Below are positions 46,004 to 59,657 of a DNA stretch of 64,000 nucleotides, piece by piece. Location of the stretch: assembly GCA_944377165.1 (NCBI GenBank), contig CALWEJ010000004.1, positions 8,369 to 72,368 of the forward strand, read 5' to 3'. The notes under the pieces are model-generated. The model ran no database searches, was not told the DNA's origin, and worked only from the letters and a program-made list of their open reading frames with translations. Made by a program: the position numbers and the translations under genes. The first letter of the stretch is position 1, and every line of letters begins with the position of its first letter. The DNA is from an uncultured Clostridia bacterium. GTDB lineage: Bacteria > Bacillota > Clostridia > Christensenellales > UBA1242.

Positions 46004-46062
46004 TGGTGCCGGTGGTCGGGGTCGAACCGACACGTCCTTTTACGGACCCAGGATTTTAAGTC
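46004..46062. repeat. attL: 59-nt duplicate of the 3' part of tRNA-Leu(UAA)
   Basis: Base-for-base identical to 59599-59657, checked by eye. Identity stops on both sides. Confidence 0.92.
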
Positions 46063-46145
46063 TCAACAAATGGGATTTATAGTCGATTTTTATCTATATT
46101 ATAGATAGTTATAATTTGTATTTGGCTAAAATTTGTTAAAAATTT

Positions 46146-46167
46146 GGGGTCAAAATTGGGGTCAAAA
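46146..46167 (+). repeat. Two GGGGTCAAAA direct repeats (12-bp phasing), candidate integrase arm-type sites
   Basis: ggggtcaaaa at 46146-55 and 46158-67. The same pair occurs at 59500-59521, and an inverted copy at 55041-55050. Confidence 0.6.
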
Positions 46168-47124
46168 CTTAGGATATAAATCTTTATAAAGATTTAAAAT
46201 ATTATTTTTTGTTATTGTTGGGTCTAAGTGTGTATATATGTCGTTGGTTATAATTATACTTGTATGACCTAAATAATATTGTCTTTCTTTATCAGAAACA
46301 CCTAAATAATAAAGATTCGTACTGAACGTATGTCGTAAGTCATGTAGTTTGTGATTGTTTATCTTTAGCAATTTTAAATATTTAGCGAATACTTTAGAGT
46401 AGTGAGGGATTGTAAATTTTTTAAACATTGTATTAAAGTTTTGTTTTAATATTTGTTTAAATTCTTCAGATATAGGAACGTATCTTTTGGAGCTTTCTGT
46501 TTTAGTTCCTGGAATGTATATTTTATTATTTACAAAATCTATATCTTTTAATTTAATATTTTCAACTTCATTGCGCCTACATCCAGTAAGTAAGTAAAAT
46601 AAGATTTCATATTTCATATTTGATTTATCTAAATTATCTAATATTAGTTTTTGTTCTTTTAAGTTAAATGAATTTCCTTTTTTACTTTGATTTTTAGGTT
46701 TTGTAATTAATTTTGATAAATCTTCTTTTACAATTTTTTGTTTATAAGCTGTTTCAAATATTCCTTTGATAATATAATAACAATAAGCTTTAGTTCGAGG
46801 TTTATCTATTTTATTTAAAAATTCTTCTAAGTCAATATATGTAAGTTTTTGAATTTCTTTTTTAAATAATGGTATATTAAAATATTTGTGAATAGCTGAT
46901 GAGTATCTTTCATTTGATGCTAAATTTTTTTTATACATATTGTACCAATTGTTTATATAATCTAAAGCAATTACATTTGTATTAATTTTTGCTGACGTTG
47001 GTTTAAAGCTTTTTATTTTAGATAATAAAGCTTTTTGAGTTTTAGCATATAAATAATATCGTTTACCGTTTATAGATTTTTTATATTCCCATCTGCCATC
47101 GTTTCTTTTTCTTATATTTTTCAT
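46162..47124 (-). CDS. int: Tyrosine recombinase/phage integrase
   Basis: C-terminal catalytic pattern (...GCRRNE..., HDLRHTF, ...LGHTSI..T.DIYTH) and an N-terminal SAM-like domain. The start at 47124 follows AAGGAG. The ORF track start is 47211. Confidence 0.9.
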   Translation of the reverse strand: MKNIRKRNDGRWEYKKSINGKRYYLYAKTQKALLSKIKSFKPTSAKINTNVIALDYINNWYNMYKKNLASNERYSSAIHKYFNIPLFKKEIQKLTYIDLEEFLNKIDKPRTKAYCYYIIKGIFETAYKQKIVKEDLSKLITKPKNQSKKGNSFNLKEQKLILDNLDKSNMKYEILFYLLTGCRRNEVENIKLKDIDFVNNKIYIPGTKTESSKRYVPISEEFKQILKQNFNTMFKKFTIPHYSKVFAKYLKLLKINNHKLHDLRHTFSTNLYYLGVSDKERQYYLGHTSIIITNDIYTHLDPTITKNNILNLYKDLYPKF

Positions 47125-47288
47125 TGTTTCATCTCCTTCTAAAGAAGATGAAGTTAACTTTATGTAAATTGGTTGTTTAAGTTCTTGCCTAAATTGAAAG
47201 TAGTTTTTCAAATTATCGTAAACATTTATAATGTATGGTAAGTGTTCATTAAGAATATCAAATTGTTTTTATATATGATTCAAAATAG

Positions 47289-47507
47289 TTATTCATTTTC
47301 TGTATCCTTTTCATCTAGTAATTTTTGTGCAAGAGTCATACTTTTGTCCATAAAGGTAATATCTCTTTGACATCTATTAATAATATCGTTTTTCTTCTTT
47401 TCAATTTCTTCATTAGGATATTTGTTTATATCTTTTCTTAATTTTCTTATTTGTTGACTAGCTTCTTTTAGTCTTTGTGATATTAATTGTAATTTTTTAT
47501 TTAACAT
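47289..47507 (-). CDS. Hypothetical coiled-coil protein (72 aa)
   Basis: RBS AAAGGA. Charged and helical, with no motif recognised. It lies in the lysogeny-side operon. Confidence 0.5.
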   Translation of the reverse strand: MLNKKLQLISQRLKEASQQIRKLRKDINKYPNEEIEKKKNDIINRCQRDITFMDKSMTLAQKLLDEKDTENE

Positions 47508-47519
47508 ATTTATATCCTT

Positions 47520-48281
47520 TTATTTTTTACTATATTTCGCAATTAATCTGGGCATTATATCATCAAGCCTTTTTATATCTTGTTCGTTTAAGTCTATTCT
47601 ATTTAAATTGTTTTCTTCATATAATTTAATTTTAACAGCTTTTCTTTTTTCATATCTTTCGTCATTTTTTATTCCCCAAAACTCAATATATGTATTTGTT
47701 TTAGGTAAGTAAAAGTCTGAAATGACGATAGCATCGGGTTGACTATCCATATATACAGATTTTTCGTATGCATGTAGATATCCATTATTATATAACCAGT
47801 CATCTATATTTTTTTCTGAAAGTGATCTAACATAATGTCCGTCTGAACATTGATATTCTCTTGGCCATTGCTCTCTATAATCTCTATCATTAAATTCTTC
47901 AACTATTCGTTCATTTTTTTGAGTTTGATATTTTGTTTTGAATTGATTATACAGGGTTAATATGTCTTTTTCTACACGCTCAGATAAATATTCATTACCA
48001 TAGATAATTGTTAGTTCTTCTGATAGAGCAAACATTAATTTTACATTTTCAATAAATTTTTCAAAATCGTTTATTGTATTTGCTTTGTCTCTTAATTCAA
48101 AATAATGATTTTGTATATTTTTTTCTTTTCTATTATGATTAAAATCATTTCTTATATTTTTTATGTCTTGATAACAATTTCTACAAAATAAATATCCATT
48201 TATTGTTTCATTTGCACATTCTAAACAAAATTGATTAAGTTTTGATTCACTATAATTATTATAATCATTAGAGTATTTCAT
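47520..48281 (-). CDS. Zinc-ribbon protein with C-terminal restriction-endonuclease-like (PD-(D/E)xK-type) domain, putative
   Basis: N-terminal CLEC...CRNC ribbon. The C-terminus RSLSEKNIDDWLYNNGY.HAYEK......PDAIVISDFYLP....YIEFWG resembles nuclease modules of the S.E...L...YE...PDF...IE.WG type. This is pattern memory only. Confidence 0.35.
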   Translation of the reverse strand: MKYSNDYNNYSESKLNQFCLECANETINGYLFCRNCYQDIKNIRNDFNHNRKEKNIQNHYFELRDKANTINDFEKFIENVKLMFALSEELTIIYGNEYLSERVEKDILTLYNQFKTKYQTQKNERIVEEFNDRDYREQWPREYQCSDGHYVRSLSEKNIDDWLYNNGYLHAYEKSVYMDSQPDAIVISDFYLPKTNTYIEFWGIKNDERYEKRKAVKIKLYEENNLNRIDLNEQDIKRLDDIMPRLIAKYSKK

Positions 48282-48637
48282 TATTTTACCCCTTTTAAAT
48301 TTTTTATTATTTGTTCTTCATCTATTTGTGTTTGGATTAAAGCTTGAGCATAAGCTTCAAGCTTTTCGATATTTTTGTTGTTTAGATTTTTCATAATATC
48401 GAAAATGGATAGTTCAGTATCAGATAAAAGCCCTTTATCAATGATATTTGGGTGGTCTCTGCCTACTAGTTCATCGAGTGTTATGTGGTAGATGTCTGCT
48501 AATTTACATAATGTTTTTACATTTGGTTCGTTTCTTCCAGATTCATAAAATCCGTAGCCAGATTTTGATATTTTAAGTAATTTAGCTATATCTTGTTGTT
48601 TGTAATTATTTTTTAATCTAAATTCTTTAAGTTTCAT
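48281..48637 (-). CDS. XRE-family HTH repressor (cI-like)
   Basis: LKEFRLKNNYKQQDIAKLLKISKSGYGFYESGRNEPNVKTLCKLADIYHITLDELVG is a classic HTH_3. The start at 48637 follows AAGGAGG. Confidence 0.88.
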   Translation of the reverse strand: MKLKEFRLKNNYKQQDIAKLLKISKSGYGFYESGRNEPNVKTLCKLADIYHITLDELVGRDHPNIIDKGLLSDTELSIFDIMKNLNNKNIEKLEAYAQALIQTQIDEEQIIKNLKGVK

Positions 48638-58926: not shown

Positions 58927-58935
58927 GAGTACAAA

Positions 58936-59214
58936 ATGAAAAATAAGAAGATAATTAATTGTTTATTAAAAAAAGACATAAGACCAAACATAAAAGGGTT
59001 TAGGTGCTTATATTATGCAATAGATTTAGTTGTTAAGAATGACGGAATACTTTTACCTAGAACAAAAGTTATCTATCCGACAGTTGCTGAGATATGTAAA
59101 GATACTTCTTCGAAAGTTGAAAGGGCAATACGACACGCAATAGAAACATCGTCTAAGTCAAGTTTGACAAATGGCGAGTTTATTGCACTGTGCGCGTTGG
59201 AAGTTATGGAGTAG
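58936..59214 (+). CDS. Spo0A C-terminal (DNA-binding) domain-like protein
   Basis: [16 protein letters not shown]...[28 protein letters not shown]...TNGEFIA parallels Spo0A HIKGY.YLREAI...[28 protein letters not shown]...TNSEFIA. Confidence 0.8.
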   Translation: [92 protein letters not shown]

Positions 59215-59217
59215 GTT

Positions 59218-59475
59218 ATGCAAGAAAAAAGAATAGATCGTATTAAAGAATTTACGAAAAGTTATGCGATTAATCGAATTGCGGAACTAAATAATGAATT
59301 AGATATTAGGTTAAATATAATTAAAAAATATAAAAATTTGTTATATTGTTATCGACAATCGATTGAGTTATTTATAGATCCGAATAATATGAAGCCAGAT
59401 AAAGAATTAGTAGCTATAGATAAAACATTAACTGAATGTATAAATAAGATAGAAGAATTAGAAAAAACTAGCTAA
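59218..59475 (+). CDS. Hypothetical coiled-coil protein (85 aa)
   Basis: RBS GGAGTAGG. The last ORF before attR, followed by a terminator hairpin at 59462-59488. Confidence 0.5.
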   Translation: MQEKRIDRIKEFTKSYAINRIAELNNELDIRLNIIKKYKNLLYCYRQSIELFIDPNNMKPDKELVAIDKTLTECINKIEELEKTS

Positions 59476-59499
59476 ATGCTAGTTTTTTGAATTTCAAGT

Positions 59500-59521
59500 G
59501 GGGTCAAACGTGGGGTCAAAA
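59500..59521 (+). repeat. GGGGTCAAA(C/A) direct repeat pair (12-bp phasing) near attR
   Basis: ggggtcaaac 59500-09 and ggggtcaaaa 59512-21, in the same orientation and phasing as 46146-46167. Confidence 0.6.
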
Positions 59522-59598
59522 CACCTTTTATGTATAAAGTTAACTTAATCTTCTAACATATTAAAGTAATAAAATTAACTATAATATAGATAATTATT

Positions 59599-59657
59599 TG
59601 GTGCCGGTGGTCGGGGTCGAACCGACACGTCCTTTTACGGACCCAGGATTTTAAGTC
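59599..59657. repeat. attR: 59-nt core within the intact tRNA-Leu
   Basis: Identical to 46004-46062. It covers the tRNA from the anticodon stem/loop to the 3' CCA. Confidence 0.92.

What the first reader, a model, noticed from the sequence alone, without database searches (positions are those of the whole stretch)
46004..59657. 13.6 kb integrated element in tRNA-Leu(UAA) bounded by an exact 59-nt direct repeat
46004-46062 is base-for-base identical to 59599-59657. The latter is the anticodon-loop-to-CCA part of an intact tRNA-Leu. A tyrosine integrase lies ~100 nt inside the left repeat, followed by an XRE repressor facing a divergent early operon. Everything between the repeats is non-housekeeping. 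I recognised no terminase, portal, major capsid or tail gene, so this is not a tailed prophage. Size and gene content fit a temperate filamentous or pleomorphic element.
Basis: partly seen in the sequence, partly recalled or inferred. Interest (0 to 1): 0.8.

Follow-up and report, generated by a model that had tools for sequence, protein, structure and literature searches.

The report
Small ssDNA prophage inside tRNA-Leu gene
A 13.6 kb mobile element, most likely a temperate filamentous-type single-stranded-DNA phage with a circovirus-style replication origin, sits precisely inside a tRNA-Leu gene of an uncultured gut Bacillota bacterium; it is real and mobile, but it belongs to kinds of element already described.

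Summary
46004-46062 equals 59599-59657 (59/59 nt), and the latter is positions 30-88 of tRNA-Leu(UAA). Other metagenome contigs of the same species carry the empty site, joined base-for-base, so the insertion is exactly 13,595 bp. A relative (Rep 64% identical) assembles as a closed 14.1 kb circle with Rep running into the integrase across attP.

The element encodes:
- a tyrosine integrase and an XRE repressor;
- a candidate defence nuclease;
- five consecutive acidic membrane or secreted proteins;
- a conserved core: o129, o76, a Zot-like ATPase, o117, the origin, then Rep.

Rep is a circovirus-type HUH endonuclease fused to an SF3 helicase. The origin is a 16-bp hairpin with the invariant loop TAGTATTAC plus five TGTCGCAC iterons. 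It is conserved, with compensatory stem changes, in 14 related sequences.

The ATPase is a remote member of the Zot/pI family of filamentous phages. Its closest deposited relatives are "bajarodino" inoviruses from rodent faeces, one of which shares the Zot-TAGTATTAC-Rep layout.

Best reading: a temperate inovirus-like prophage using a pCRESS-type replicon. No virion evidence exists. The ATPase lacks the pI membrane anchor and no canonical coat protein is recognisable, so an integrated plasmid remains a real rival.

Verdict: new member of known kinds, moderate interest.

The parts
46004..46062 (.). attL core: 59-nt copy of the 3' part of tRNA-Leu(UAA)
   Evidence: Exact repeat of 59599-59657. 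The empty-site contig L093 carries a single copy.
46145..46168 (.). Tandem TGGGGTCAAAA repeats, candidate arm-type integrase binding sites (P' arm)
   Evidence: Repeat family D4 is shared with 59499-59522 at the other end of the element. The circular relative L102 has an analogous pair (GAGTAGAAT x2) on both sides of its attP core. Binding is inferred.
46162..47211 (-). Tyrosine integrase. The likely start is the ATG at 47124 (320 aa); the ORF extends to a TTG at 47211.
   Evidence: PF00589 at 6.8e-20; phrog_1 integrase at 1.2e-51. The gene is called as 320 aa in L077.
47289..47507 (-). 72-aa basic coiled-coil ORF of unknown function, next to int; possible excision helper
   Evidence: ORF only. 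No family hit at curated cut-offs. The role is speculative.
47520..48281 (-). 253-aa CxxC plus PD-(D/E)xK-type protein: candidate anti-phage defence cargo
   Evidence: PADLOC PDC-S69 at 1.2e-35 over residues 118-251; HEAT_CxxC_PD-DEXK at 8.8e-6. A 31%-identical homologue is present in L091.
48281..48664 (-). XRE/CI-type repressor (called as 118 aa from 48637 in L077)
   Evidence: PF01381 HTH_3 at 2.4e-15. Conserved next to int in related elements.
48665..48815 (.). Divergent switch region with a sigma-70-like promoter (TTGCAA-17-TATAAT, 48733-48761, plus strand) and repeated GTTAACA motifs
   Evidence: Consensus scan and sequence reading. Function is inferred.
48816..50188 (+). Five small basic early ORFs (90, 100, 65, 123 and 73 aa), function unknown
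   Evidence: ORFs. o100, o65 and o73 are conserved in L080, L083, L084, L087 and L088. No family hits.
50240..50443 (+). tm67: 67-aa single-pass membrane protein with an acidic C-terminal tail
   Evidence: Hydropathy and charge. Homologues in L080, L084, L088 and L103.
50468..50653 (+). tm61: 61-aa protein with a signal-like N-terminus and an amphipathic helix; best candidate for the major coat protein
   Evidence: Hydropathy. Conserved FTGTWIF...NFFGWN motif in L083 and L103. The coat role is inferred from size, topology and position only.
50646..51875 (+). o409: N-terminally anchored acidic protein, candidate virion or surface protein
   Evidence: TM segment at 7-36, pI 4.1. Weak homologue in L083; equivalents of 406-421 aa at the same position in L001, L080 and L102.
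51872..53650 (+). o592: N-terminally anchored coiled-coil protein with Listeria-Bacteroides (Flg_new) repeats; candidate adhesin or receptor-binding protein
   Evidence: PF09479 at 3.3e-7. Length varies from 592 to 837 aa among relatives.
53669..54793 (+). o374: secreted or anchored acidic protein; a swappable cassette
   Evidence: In L094, which is otherwise 98-100% identical in most neighbouring genes (o76 88%), it is replaced by a 387-aa variant only 37% identical.
54810..54972 (+). Remnant: a second copy of the o374 leader (89% identical to 53650-53756) heading a 47-aa ORF
   Evidence: Direct repeat D1; ORF translation.
55215..55604 (+). o129: the most widely conserved core protein besides the ATPase and Rep; candidate ssDNA-binding protein
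   Evidence: Present at 43-55% identity in 10 of 11 related loci. Only 67 representatives among 1.84 billion proteins. AF2 pLDDT 91.9 with a (beta-beta-beta-alpha) x2 topology. The best fold hit, Pur-alpha, is not significant (E 0.035).
55613..55843 (+). o76: very basic 76-aa protein (pI 10.2); candidate DNA-binding or charge-neutralising protein
   Evidence: 53-68% identity in L080, L083, L084, L086 and L087; charge. The role is inferred.
55944..56849 (+). Soluble P-loop ATPase, a remote Zot/pI (filamentous-phage assembly) family member, with an acidic tail ending in Phe
   Evidence: - phrog_197 Zot-like at 1e-4.
- 4 of 17 homologues hit PF05707, best 1.5e-5.
- Profile against PDB: best hit 2r2a.
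- Foldseek top hits are Zot in both PDB (1.7e-7) and BFVD.
- hhalign gives 98.6% probability against the bajarodino virus 12 Zot, which passes the Pfam cut-off.
56858..57211 (+). o117: conserved partner ORF downstream of the ATPase, function unknown
   Evidence: 30-43% identity in 8 related loci. No family hits.
57273..57366 (+). Two tandem imperfect hairpins containing DnaA-box-like sequences; candidate complementary-strand origin and/or packaging signal
   Evidence: - Inverted repeats I1 and I2.
- The plus strand folds at -25.1 kcal/mol (z -7.95) against -18.9 for the minus strand.
- The only perfect TTATCCACA in the 64 kb window lies here, plus two 8/9 boxes.
- Similar clusters occur in L001, L002, L090 and L102 but not in the more distant loci.
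57467..57598 (+). Rolling-circle origin. A 16-bp stem (57467-57482 / 57494-57509) carries the loop TATAGTATTAC. The predicted nick TAGTATT|AC falls between 57491 and 57492. Five (T)GTCGCA(C) iterons span 57504-57598.
   Evidence: - Sequence.
- Rfam RF03070 ssNA-helicase at 31.4 bits, below the gathering score of 41.5.
- The same hairpin lies upstream of Rep in 11 related loci plus L094; L001 and L090 carry AAGTATTAC.
- All 14 stem pairs show compensatory changes, and TAGTATTACC is invariant.
57616..58926 (+). Rep: HUH endonuclease plus SF3 helicase (CRESS/circovirus type)
   Evidence: - PF02407 at 1.7e-15 and PF00910 at 2.5e-6.
- Invariant motifs FTINNP, HxQ, YxxK, Walker A/B and motif C.
- Profile against PDB: PCV2 Rep 7lar at 6e-32 over residues 99-358.
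58936..59214 (+). Spo0A C-terminal-domain-like DNA-binding protein (cargo or regulator)
   Evidence: PF08769 at 9.7e-19; phrog_24603 at 4.9e-12.
59218..59475 (+). o85: last ORF, function unknown, followed by a hairpin and T-run (read by eye)
   Evidence: ORF; sequence.
59499..59522 (.). Tandem TGGGGTCAAA(A/C)G repeats, candidate arm-type sites (P arm)
   Evidence: Repeat family D4.
59599..59686 (-). Intact tRNA-Leu(UAA); its 3' 59 nt (59599-59657) form the attR core
   Evidence: ARAGORN; Rfam tRNA at 57.4 bits; repeat D2.

Best explanation
The element is a 13,595-bp temperate, inovirus-like (filamentous-type, order Tubulavirales sensu lato) single-stranded-DNA prophage. Its replication module is of the CRESS/pCRESS type.

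Shown here:
- It is a discrete insertion into the 3' part of tRNA-Leu(UAA), with a 59-bp att core.
- The site is polymorphic (empty or occupied) within one species.
- A relative exists as a closed 14.1 kb circle that joins the Rep end to the int end across an attP. That attP carries a tRNA 3' end flanked by arm repeats.
- The origin hairpin with TAGTATTAC and iterons, and the HUH+SF3 Rep, are conserved with covariation across the family.

Inferred mechanism:
1. The tyrosine integrase recombines attP with the tRNA gene and regenerates an intact tRNA.
2. The XRE repressor silences the divergent plus-strand operon.
3. After derepression and excision, Rep binds the TGTCGCAC iterons and nicks TAGTATT|AC in the hairpin loop, as circovirus Rep does. 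This drives rolling-circle synthesis of plus-strand circles.
4. The two upstream plus-strand hairpins with DnaA boxes prime complementary-strand synthesis and/or mark the DNA for packaging.
5. o129 and the basic o76 coat the ssDNA.
6. The Zot-like ATPase powers assembly and extrusion through the membrane. There the small membrane proteins (tm61, tm67) and the anchored acidic proteins (o409, o592 adhesin, o374) join the particle.

The CxxC/PD-DExK nuclease and the Spo0A_C-like protein are lysogen cargo.
For: Integration and mobility:
- Exact 59-nt direct repeat equal to tRNA positions 30-88.
- An empty site identical to the two flanks joined.
- The same element in independent assemblies.
- Relatives of 11.4-13.7 kb flanked by 16-50-nt repeats of tRNA-Val, -Lys, -Met and -Pro 3' ends.
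- Circular contig L102 with a 30-nt terminal overlap and the order Rep, attP, int. L103 and L104 also cross this junction.

ssDNA rolling-circle replicon:
- Rep carries Viral_Rep plus RNA_helicase domains.
- Its profile matches PCV2 Rep at 6e-32.
- The TAGTATTAC hairpin and iterons.
- 14 of 14 stem pairs show compensatory changes.
- Strand-biased hairpins upstream of the origin.

Filamentous-type morphogenesis:
- The ATPase is linked to Zot by PHROGs, by Pfam hits in homologues, by a PDB profile, and by Foldseek against PDB and BFVD.
- hhalign gives 98.6% probability against a deposited inovirus Zot that passes the Pfam cut-off.
- Five consecutive membrane or secreted proteins include two of 61-67 aa upstream of large adhesin-like proteins. 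This matches the inovirus order: coat, then adsorption proteins, then pI.
- A cassette swap of o374 between near-identical elements.
- Deposited circular 'Inoviridae' genomes from rodent faeces share the Zot-TAGTATTAC hairpin-Rep layout (L108) or the Zot+int+repressor layout (L107).
- No relaxase other than Rep, no coupling protein and no T4SS family were found.
Against: - There is no evidence of a virion, or of packaged ssDNA, for this element or its close relatives.
- The family is absent from IMG/VR by pattern search with both the Rep and the ATPase profiles.
- The window's own ATPase does not reach any Pfam threshold.
- The ATPase has no membrane-spanning segment, unlike Ff pI.
- The candidate coat proteins lack the basic C-terminus typical of inovirus major coat proteins.
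- The structural-module proteins have no detectable similarity to any deposited phage protein.
- 13.6 kb is at the large end for inoviruses.
- No attP junction of this exact element was found.
- Kazlauskas et al. 2019 interpreted integrated elements carrying such Reps as plasmids.
Confidence: 0.58

Rival explanations
1. It is an integrated pCRESS-type plasmid or integrative mobilizable element that makes no virion. Rep acts as replicase and/or relaxase. The P-loop ATPase acts in DNA segregation or translocation. The anchored surface proteins mediate cell-cell adhesion or surface exclusion. Spread is by conjugation-like transfer or mobilisation.
For: - Kazlauskas et al. 2019 (PMC6668415) describe HUH+S3H Reps in bacteria as residing almost always in tyrosine-integrase elements inserted in tRNA genes. 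They call these integrated plasmids lacking viral structural genes.
- No recognisable coat protein, and an ATPase without a membrane anchor.
- Foldseek also returns FtsK/HerA-class packaging NTPases such as STIV2 B204, and PilT.
- The family is absent from IMG/VR.
Against: - The ATPase groups with Zot/pI rather than FtsK. Zot is the top hit in two structure libraries, and hhalign gives 98.6% probability against an inovirus Zot.
- There is no FtsK-like, MOBV, SSB(DUF961), T4CP or T4SS family. These are the signature genes of the pCRESS element families.
- Deposited circular genomes classified as Inoviridae share the Zot-ori-Rep arrangement.
- A Hungatella pCRESS2 element in that paper's own table already carries a pI/Zot gene.
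Confidence: 0.25
2. It is a temperate virus with a non-filamentous particle. Examples would be a pleomorphic, membrane-enveloped budding virus (plasmavirus- or pleolipovirus-like) or another undescribed morphotype. In this reading the five membrane proteins form an envelope with spikes, and o129/o76 condense the genome.
For: - Five consecutive acidic membrane-anchored proteins and a large variable adhesin/spike-like protein.
- A soluble ATPase without a pI-type anchor.
- A separate very basic protein, instead of a basic coat C-terminus.
- Acholeplasma phage L2 ORF3 is among the fold matches (8.6e-5).
- L2 is of similar size, integrates, and infects a wall-less relative of the Bacillota.
Against: - There is no sequence-level relation to L2 ORF3 (hhalign probability 1.7%).
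- L2 uses DnaA-box origins and has no Rep.
- The best sequence and structure matches of the ATPase are consistently Zot of inoviruses.
- No pleolipovirus or plasmavirus family was hit in PHROGs or Pfam.
Confidence: 0.13
3. It is a fixed, decayed remnant, or an assembly duplication artefact.
For: No attP junction or circle of this exact element was retrieved.
Against: - All 21 ORFs are intact, and the element recurs gene for gene in other samples (L077; L094 98-100% identical in most genes).
- The att repeats are 59/59 identical.
- Empty and occupied alleles coexist in the species.
- A relative is assembled as a circle.
- Independent assemblers and samples give the same junctions.
Confidence: 0.02

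Closest known systems
Inovirus-like circular genomes from rodent faeces ('bajarodino viruses', GenBank PQ006121-PQ006185, deposited as Tubulavirales; Inoviridae)
   Same: - Bajarodino virus 12 (9.8 kb) has a Zot that aligns to the window ATPase family (hhalign 98.6%, 26% identity over 187 columns). It also has an integrase and a repressor on the opposite strand to the other genes.
- Bajarodino viruses 74, 13, 30, 56 and 2 have a Rep 28-34% identical to the window Rep.
- Virus 74 has Zot, a TAGTATTAC hairpin and then Rep, in the same order.
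   Different: - They are 5-10 kb against 13.6 kb.
- No other gene is detectably shared: o129, o76, o117 and all membrane proteins are missing.
- Virus 74 has a canonical coat-like 69-aa protein with a basic C-terminus, which the window element lacks.
- No single deposited genome combines this ATPase lineage with this Rep lineage.
pCRESS integrated elements (Kazlauskas, Varsani, Koonin, Krupovic 2019, PMC6668415)
   Same: - HUH endonuclease plus S3H helicase Rep with a Viral_Rep domain.
- A tyrosine integrase.
- Insertion into tRNA genes with direct-repeat att sites.
- Bacillota hosts.
- Size of 8-14 kb.
   Different: - The pCRESS families are defined by FtsK-like ATPase+SSB, by MOBV, or by phytoplasma plasmid genes, and were judged to lack viral genes. 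This element has none of those signatures. It has a Zot-like ATPase plus a membrane-protein module instead.
- One Hungatella pCRESS2 element in their supplement does list a pI/Zot gene.
- Which pCRESS clade this Rep falls in was not determined.
Inovirus protein family iPF_00203 of Roux et al. 2019 (PMC6813254)
   Same: It is the only rolling-circle Rep family in their 10,295 inovirus-like sequences that carries the C-terminal S3H helicase 'typical of eukaryotic ssDNA viruses'. That is the same combination of an inovirus morphogenesis marker with a CRESS-like Rep. Their monoderm-host families also include tyrosine-recombinase prophages.
   Different: Membership of the window Rep in iPF_00203 could not be tested, because the family sequences are not at hand. 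The ATPase family has no relative in IMG/VR by pattern search.
Circoviridae / Cressdnaviricota replication module
   Same: - Rep motifs I-III plus Walker A, Walker B and motif C.
- Best solved homologue is PCV2 Rep (6e-32).
- Origin is a stem-loop with TAGTATTAC and adjacent iterons immediately upstream of rep.
   Different: - The host is bacterial and the genome is 13.6 kb.
- The element has an integrase and a repressor.
- No jelly-roll capsid was found.
- There is an insertion of about 80 aa between Rep motifs I and II.
Rfam RF03070 'ssNA-helicase' motif
   Same: A hairpin with loop UAGUAUUA(C), followed by direct repeats, lying upstream of a gene with the PF00910 helicase domain.
   Different: It scores 31.4 bits, below the gathering score of 41.5. 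Here the motif is read as a DNA rolling-circle origin rather than an RNA. That DNA-origin reading was suggested for the motif before; this statement rests on my own recollection and is not verified in a paper held here (one search found no relevant text).
Plasmaviridae (Acholeplasma phage L2)
   Same: A roughly 12 kb temperate, integrating, non-tailed element with envelope proteins and a 312-aa P-loop protein of similar fold.
   Different: There is no sequence homology. L2 has no Rep or RCR origin and replicates from DnaA-box origins as dsDNA.

Membership tests
tRNA-targeting integrative element with tyrosine recombinase | Direct repeats at both ends, identical to part of the target tRNA, with an intact tRNA regenerated | tested here: met
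   59/59-nt repeat equal to tRNA-Leu positions 30-88; an intact tRNA at attR.
tRNA-targeting integrative element with tyrosine recombinase | Tyrosine recombinase gene next to an att site | tested here: met
   PF00589 at 6.8e-20 and phrog_1 at 1.2e-51; the gene ends 100 nt from attL.
tRNA-targeting integrative element with tyrosine recombinase | Empty attB allele in related genomes | tested here: met
   L093 (plus 4 similar contigs) joins the two flanks through a single core copy, identical base for base.
tRNA-targeting integrative element with tyrosine recombinase | Excised circular form with attP | tested here: inconclusive
   Not found for this element. Found for a relative with a 64%-identical Rep: L102 has a 30-nt terminal overlap, and L103 and L104 cross the Rep-attP-int junction.
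Tubulavirales (inovirus-like filamentous phages) | pI/Zot-family morphogenesis ATPase, the marker used by Roux et al. 2019 | tested here: met
   The relationship is remote but consistent:
- phrog_197 at 1e-4.
- PF05707 in 4 of 17 homologues.
- 2r2a is the best hit by profile and by Foldseek.
- BFVD Zot hits.
- hhalign 98.6% against a Zot that passes the Pfam cut-off.
The window protein itself is below the Pfam threshold.
Tubulavirales (inovirus-like filamentous phages) | pI architecture: an N-terminal ATPase plus a transmembrane segment | tested here: not met
   There is no TM segment in any of 17 homologues, and the C-terminus is an acidic tail ending in Phe. Short, apparently soluble Zot proteins (190-270 aa) do occur in deposited inovirus records.
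Tubulavirales (inovirus-like filamentous phages) | Small (30-90 aa) single-TM major coat protein with a basic DNA-binding C-terminus | tested here: inconclusive
   tm61 and tm67 fit in size, single TM segment and position. They carry only 1-2 basic residues and have no homology to known coat proteins.
Tubulavirales (inovirus-like filamentous phages) | Circular ssDNA genome packaged in a filament and released by extrusion | not testable with these tools
   There is only indirect support: an RCR origin and Rep, and plus-strand-biased hairpins.
pCRESS integrated plasmids (Kazlauskas et al. 2019) | Rep with an HUH nuclease plus an SF3 helicase related to CRESS-DNA virus Reps | tested here: met
   PF02407 plus PF00910; invariant motifs; PCV2 Rep at 6e-32.
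pCRESS integrated plasmids (Kazlauskas et al. 2019) | Signature accessory genes (FtsK-like ATPase + SSB, or MOBV) and absence of viral morphogenesis genes | tested here: not met
   No FtsK, DUF961-type SSB or MOBV family was found. A Zot-like ATPase is present instead.
pCRESS integrated plasmids (Kazlauskas et al. 2019) | Placement of Rep in one of clades pCRESS1-9 | not tested
Cressdnaviricota (CRESS-DNA viruses) | Stem-loop origin with a conserved nonanucleotide, plus iterons | tested here: met
   TAGTATTAC sits in the loop of a covarying 12-16-bp stem in 14 sequences, with locus-specific iterons.
Cressdnaviricota (CRESS-DNA viruses) | Small (about 2-6 kb) genome with a jelly-roll capsid gene, and a eukaryotic host | tested here: not met
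   The element is 13.6 kb and integrated in a bacterial chromosome. No capsid family was found. The o129 model is not a jelly roll.
Rfam RF03070 ssNA-helicase motif | Covariance-model score at or above the gathering threshold | tested here: not met
   31.4 bits against 41.5. The E-value is 7e-4 on the 431-nt region and 0.027 on 16 kb. The hairpin, loop and repeat layout and the genomic context all match.
Plasmaviridae | Homology to L2 proteins | tested here: not met
   hhalign of the ATPase profile against L2 ORF3 gives 1.7% probability. tblastn of the ATPase, Rep and o129 against GenBank phages returned no L2 match.

The most novel reading that the evidence does not exclude
The element family may not be a canonical inovirus. 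It could be a distinct, undescribed lineage of temperate ssDNA viruses of monoderm gut bacteria. Its conserved core would be a PUR-like o129, the basic o76, a soluble Zot-like ATPase, o117, a circovirus-type origin and an HUH-SF3 Rep. This core would build a new kind of particle, for example ssDNA condensed by o129/o76 inside a membrane or sheath made of the five acidic anchored proteins. That would make it a bona fide bacterial virus carrying the complete replication apparatus of eukaryotic CRESS-DNA viruses. It would be a possible living intermediate between pCRESS plasmids and Cressdnaviricota. It would also be a source of 'CRESS' Rep reads in gut viromes.
Probability: 0.15. Interest if true: 0.8.

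Novelty: new member of a known kind. Interest (0 to 1): 0.45.

Why it matters
- The locus is a clean, fully delimited example. It has base-exact ends, an empty allele and a circular relative. It shows a bacterial temperate element that pairs a filamentous-phage assembly ATPase with the full circovirus-style replication apparatus: HUH-SF3 Rep, a TAGTATTAC hairpin and iterons.
- Such elements bear on where eukaryotic CRESS-DNA viruses got their Reps.
- They also bear on how many 'CRESS' sequences in gut viromes really come from bacteria.
- They give a concrete DNA-level function (a rolling-circle origin) to the orphan Rfam motif ssNA-helicase.
- The family is rare. There are about 20 ATPase clusters among 5.8 billion proteins, it is absent from IMG/VR, and it occurs in uncultured gut Bacillota. 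Current virus-detection pipelines therefore appear to miss it.
- It also carries a candidate defence nuclease and a Spo0A-like regulator. Lysogeny may therefore change host phage resistance and possibly sporulation control.

Tried and rejected
- Megablast of the whole element against GenBank phages gave no match.
- Single-protein scans of IMG/VR with Rep and with the ATPase gave nothing.
- A Rep-profile scan of IMG/VR returned only distant small CRESS genomes at 42% identity or less over short segments.
- An ATPase-profile scan of IMG/VR gave nothing.
- An exact search for this element's attP junction in JGI metagenome contigs gave no hits.
- Look-ups of contigs carrying the left-flank gene, o85 and the integrase gave no attP junction. 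Short-read contigs simply break about 30 nt into the repeat, as expected for k=31 graphs.
- The o129 structure gave a confident model but no significant fold match. Pur-alpha was best at E 0.035 and TM 0.24, so ssDNA binding is only a suggestion. A profile against PDB sequences and Pfam scans of distant members gave nothing.
- A plasmavirus link was rejected at sequence level.
- I considered that the 28-nt duplicate of the tRNA-Leu 5' end (59854-59881) belongs to the element. I rejected this because it is also present in the empty-site allele.
- The DnaA-box hairpins hold only for the closer relatives, not the distant loci, so they are kept as a lead.
- Literature searches for 'ssNA-helicase' and 'bajarodino' found no usable paper.
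- The host could not be named. Cluster look-ups of DnaK, Rep and the ATPase returned no annotations.

Full report
**1. The observation**

The repeat finder reports 45999-46062 and 59594-59657 as a 64-nt pair at 97% identity. The 59 nt at 46004-46062 and 59599-59657 are identical (read directly). ARAGORN places tRNA-Leu(taa) on the minus strand at 59599-59686, and Rfam agrees at 57.4 bits. The right-hand copy is therefore tRNA positions 30-88, including the encoded CCA.

A tyrosine-recombinase ORF ends at 46162, 100 nt inside the left copy. An HTH_3/XRE gene (48281-48664, minus strand) faces a plus-strand operon that begins at 48816. No terminase, portal, capsid or tail family was found in Pfam or PHROGs for any of the 21 ORFs.

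**2. It is a real, precisely delimited, mobile insertion**

Looking up contigs that encode exactly the right-flank 229-aa protein returned 22 contigs from many samples.
- In L093 (a 281 kb ENA contig, plus four similar places), that gene is followed after about 840 nt by the left-flank PNP_UDP_1 gene, with no element between them.
- In L094, L095 and L096, the element is present.

Aligning the L093 spacer to the window shows it equals window ..46062 joined to 59658.., base for base, with one copy of the core. The insertion is therefore exactly 13,595 bp. The species is polymorphic for it, and the repeat is not an assembly artefact.

Short-read contigs that enter the repeat from either side stop about 26-30 nt into it. 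This is expected for a de Bruijn graph at k=31.

Tandem TGGGGTCAAAA repeats lie about 80-100 nt from the core at both ends (46145-46168 and 59499-59522). This is the layout expected of arm-type integrase sites in attP.

**3. A family of such elements, one seen as a circle**

The Rep has about 114 close homologues, nearly all unnamed, from metagenomes and Bacillota MAGs. The ATPase has only 20.

Related loci share this layout: int(-), XRE(-), then small ORFs, membrane proteins, o129, (o76), ATPase, o117, origin and Rep on the plus strand.

In GTDB representative genomes, nine loci occur in MAGs labelled Clostridia, Clostridiales or Candidatus Caccovivens, and in one Eggerthellaceae bin. Four of them are bounded by repeats of the 3' ends of tRNA genes:

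| Locus | tRNA | Repeat length | Element size |
|---|---|---|---|
| L084 | Val | 45 nt | 13.7 kb |
| L085 | Lys | 50 nt | 11.9 kb |
| L087 | Met | 16 nt | 11.4 kb |
| L088 | Pro | 16 nt | 13.1 kb |

Contig L102 (14,141 nt, Rep 64% identical) has an exact 30-nt terminal overlap. It reads Rep, two small ORFs, attP, int(-), XRE(-), early genes, then structural genes, with no host gene. L103 and L104, from other samples, also cross the Rep-to-int junction. Its attP region contains a tRNA 3' end (…GGATTCAAATCCCTCACTCTCCGCCA) flanked on both sides by GAGTAGAATTTGAGTAGAAT repeats. This parallels the window's arm repeats.

For this exact element no attP junction was found.

**4. The replicon is circovirus-type**

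The 436-aa protein has Viral_Rep (PF02407, 1.7e-15) and RNA_helicase (PF00910) domains. The following motifs are invariant across 31 homologues:
- motif I, FTINNP;
- motif II, HxQ;
- motif III, YxxK;
- Walker A and Walker B;
- motif C;
- an arginine finger.

The profile's best solved relative is porcine circovirus 2 Rep (7lar, 6e-32, nuclease plus helicase).

The origin lies 107 nt upstream of the start codon. It is a perfect 16-bp stem (57467-57482 / 57494-57509) with the loop TATAGTATTAC. It is followed by five copies of (T)GTCGCA(C) up to 57598. TAGTATTAC is the circovirus origin nonamer, which I state from established knowledge of Circoviridae. By analogy, the nick would fall between 57491 and 57492.

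Rfam's ssNA-helicase motif (RF03070) matches this hairpin and the first two iterons at 31.4 bits. This is below the gathering score of 41.5.

The same hairpin sits upstream of Rep in 11 related loci (12 with L094, a copy of the same element), with different stem sequences and locus-specific iterons. L001 and L090 carry AAGTATTAC instead. In an alignment of 14 sequences, TAGTATTACC is invariant, and all 14 stem pairs show at least one double compensatory change.

Upstream, two tandem imperfect hairpins (57275-57366) fold better on the plus strand: -25.1 kcal/mol (z -7.95) against -18.9 kcal/mol for the minus strand. They contain the only perfect DnaA box (TTATCCACA) in the 64 kb window, plus two 8/9 boxes. 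Similar clusters occur in the closer relatives only.

I read these hairpins as a candidate complementary-strand origin, by analogy with DnaA-box hairpin priming, and/or a packaging signal. This is inference.

**5. The morphogenesis candidate**

The 301-aa P-loop protein (Walker A GLEGFGKT; invariant E122 in LFVPE) gets no Pfam family itself. Several lines nevertheless link it to the Zot/pI family:
- It hits PHROG 197 'Zot-like' at 1e-4.
- Four of 17 homologues hit PF05707 Zot, best 1.5e-5.
- The family profile's best PDB sequence match is 2r2a, the Neisseria Zot N-domain.
- An AlphaFold model (pLDDT 70.5, core above 85) has 2r2a as its top Foldseek hit (1.7e-7). STIV2 B204, PilT and RecA follow.
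- In BFVD, the best named hits are 'Zonular occludens toxin [Inoviridae sp.]'.
- tblastn against GenBank phages finds only two records, both annotated Zot in Inoviridae.
- hhalign of the family profile against the bajarodino virus 12 Zot gives 98.6% probability (E 5.8e-16, 187 columns). That protein passes Pfam's Zot threshold.

The ATPase is therefore a remote but genuine Zot-family member.

It differs from Ff pI in having no transmembrane segment. It also ends in an acidic tail whose last residue is Phe in 17 of 17 homologues.

**6. The rest of the gene set**

Five consecutive genes (tm67, tm61, o409, o592, o374) encode acidic proteins (pI 4.1-4.6) with an N-terminal hydrophobic anchor or signal.
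- tm61 has a signal-like N-terminus and a conserved amphipathic segment (FTGTWIF…NFFGWN) shared with L083 and L103. It is the best coat-protein candidate by size and position, but it has only one or two basic residues.
- o592 carries Listeria-Bacteroides repeats and a coiled coil, and it varies in length among relatives.
- o374 is replaced by a 37%-identical variant in L094, where most neighbouring genes are 98-100% identical (o76 88%). A duplicated o374 leader heads a 47-aa remnant just downstream. This behaviour fits a host-range or surface-variation cassette.

o129 is present in 10 of 11 related loci (43-55% identity). It belongs to a tiny family of 67 representatives among 1.84 billion proteins, and it has no Pfam family, even for distant members. 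It folds confidently (pLDDT 91.9) as two beta-beta-beta-alpha units. The only resemblance, to PUR repeats, is not significant.

o76 is very basic (pI 10.2).

In the lysogeny module, o253 matches the PADLOC candidate defence family PDC-S69 (1.2e-35) and a CxxC/PD-DExK model. Downstream of Rep is a Spo0A C-terminal-domain-like protein (9.7e-19).

**7. What is already known**

Kazlauskas et al. 2019 (PMC6668415) described nine clades of bacterial HUH+S3H Reps (pCRESS1-9). Of these, 97.5% outside two clades lie in tyrosine-integrase elements, mostly in tRNA genes. The authors called them integrated plasmids because none encoded known viral structural proteins. Their signature accessory genes are FtsK-like ATPase+SSB or MOBV. 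Their own table, however, lists a Hungatella pCRESS2 element with a pI/Zot gene.

Roux et al. 2019 (PMC6813254) noted one inovirus Rep family, iPF_00203, that carries the S3H domain 'typical of eukaryotic ssDNA viruses'.

GenBank holds circular 'bajarodino virus' genomes (Inoviridae) from rodent faeces. They carry Zot plus such a Rep. In virus 74 the order is Zot, a TAGTATTAC hairpin, then Rep.

The combination found here is therefore not new in kind. What is new is the lineage:
- The ATPase is 26% identical to its nearest annotated relative.
- The o129/o76/o117 core and all membrane proteins have no deposited homologues.
- The genome is larger than those of its deposited relatives.
- The family is absent from IMG/VR by the searches possible here.

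**8. Verdict**

The finding is correct. The element is a real, recently mobile, intact temperate element.

The most likely mechanism is an inovirus-like life cycle on a CRESS/pCRESS replicon (confidence about 0.58). Rivals:
- an integrated plasmid or mobilizable element without a virion (about 0.25);
- a non-filamentous particle (about 0.13).

The integration, polymorphism, circular relative, Rep and origin are shown from sequence. Nicking, the ssDNA stage, packaging and extrusion are inferred.

I rate it a new member of known kinds, with moderate interest (0.45). The interest would rise sharply if particles of a new type were demonstrated.

Noticed in passing
window 59854-59881 versus 59662-59689 (spacer 59690-59853): A 28-nt exact copy of the 5' end of tRNA-Leu (positions 1-25 plus 3 nt of leader) lies directly next to the 3' end of tRNA-Cys. 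It is 164 nt upstream of the complete tRNA-Leu. It is also present in the empty-site allele, so it is a host feature. It may be the scar of an older event at the same tRNA. Rfam finds nothing in the spacer.
   Followed up: partly
window 55944-56849 and 57616-58926 (C-termini); alignments A1, A2: The ATPase (17 of 17 homologues) and Rep (about 21 of 31) both end in an acidic tail whose last residue is Phe. Examples are EDIPDFDF, DDELPF and GELKF. This resembles the C-terminal tip of bacterial SSB (…DDDIPF). It suggests both proteins dock on a common partner, such as host SSB-interacting proteins or an element-encoded ssDNA-binding protein.
   Followed up: partly
window 47520-48281 (-): The 253-aa protein between the repressor and the integrase matches the PADLOC phage-defence candidate PDC-S69 (1.2e-35) and a CxxC/PD-DExK nuclease model. 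This is a likely prophage-borne defence gene.
   Followed up: partly
window 58936-59214 (+): A 92-aa protein consists only of a Spo0A C-terminal DNA-binding-domain-like region (PF08769, 9.7e-19). It could let the element bind Spo0A boxes and interfere with, or sense, host sporulation control. In the near-identical element L094 it aligns over only 81 residues and is not called as a gene.
   Followed up: no
window 53650-53756 versus 54810-54916; L094 16046-17209: The leader of o374 is duplicated (89% identity) in front of a 47-aa remnant ORF. In L094, o374 is replaced by a 37%-identical 387-aa variant, while most neighbouring genes are 98-100% identical. This is evidence of cassette exchange at this position.
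   Followed up: partly
window 57472-57518; Rfam RF03070: The Rfam 'ssNA-helicase RNA' consensus (hairpin with loop UAGUAUUA, then UGUAGCA UGUAGCA) looks like a CRESS-type DNA rolling-circle origin: the nonanucleotide plus iterons. The motif is probably a DNA element of this class of replicons rather than an RNA.
   Followed up: partly
window 57273-57353: The only perfect DnaA box (TTATCCACA) in the 64 kb window, plus two 8/9 boxes, lies inside the stems of the two hairpins upstream of the origin. Clusters recur in L001, L002, L090 and L102 but not in more distant relatives.
   Followed up: partly
L085 (CAVCJG010000001.1, 'Eggerthellaceae bacterium'): One related element (ATPase 43% identical, in tRNA-Lys) sits in a genome bin labelled Eggerthellaceae (Actinomycetota). 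All the others are in Clostridia-type MAGs. This is either a mis-binned contig or a cross-phylum host.
   Followed up: no
L106 10540-11445 (-): In this relative, the position occupied by the integrase in other elements holds a Fic-domain gene. The lysogeny and cargo end of the family is therefore variable.
   Followed up: no
window int orientation versus L084, L085, L087, L088: In the window, the integrase lies next to the partial tRNA copy (attL), and the intact tRNA is at the Rep end. In four relatives, the intact tRNA lies next to the integrase. The attP core is therefore inverted relative to the gene map in different members.
   Followed up: no
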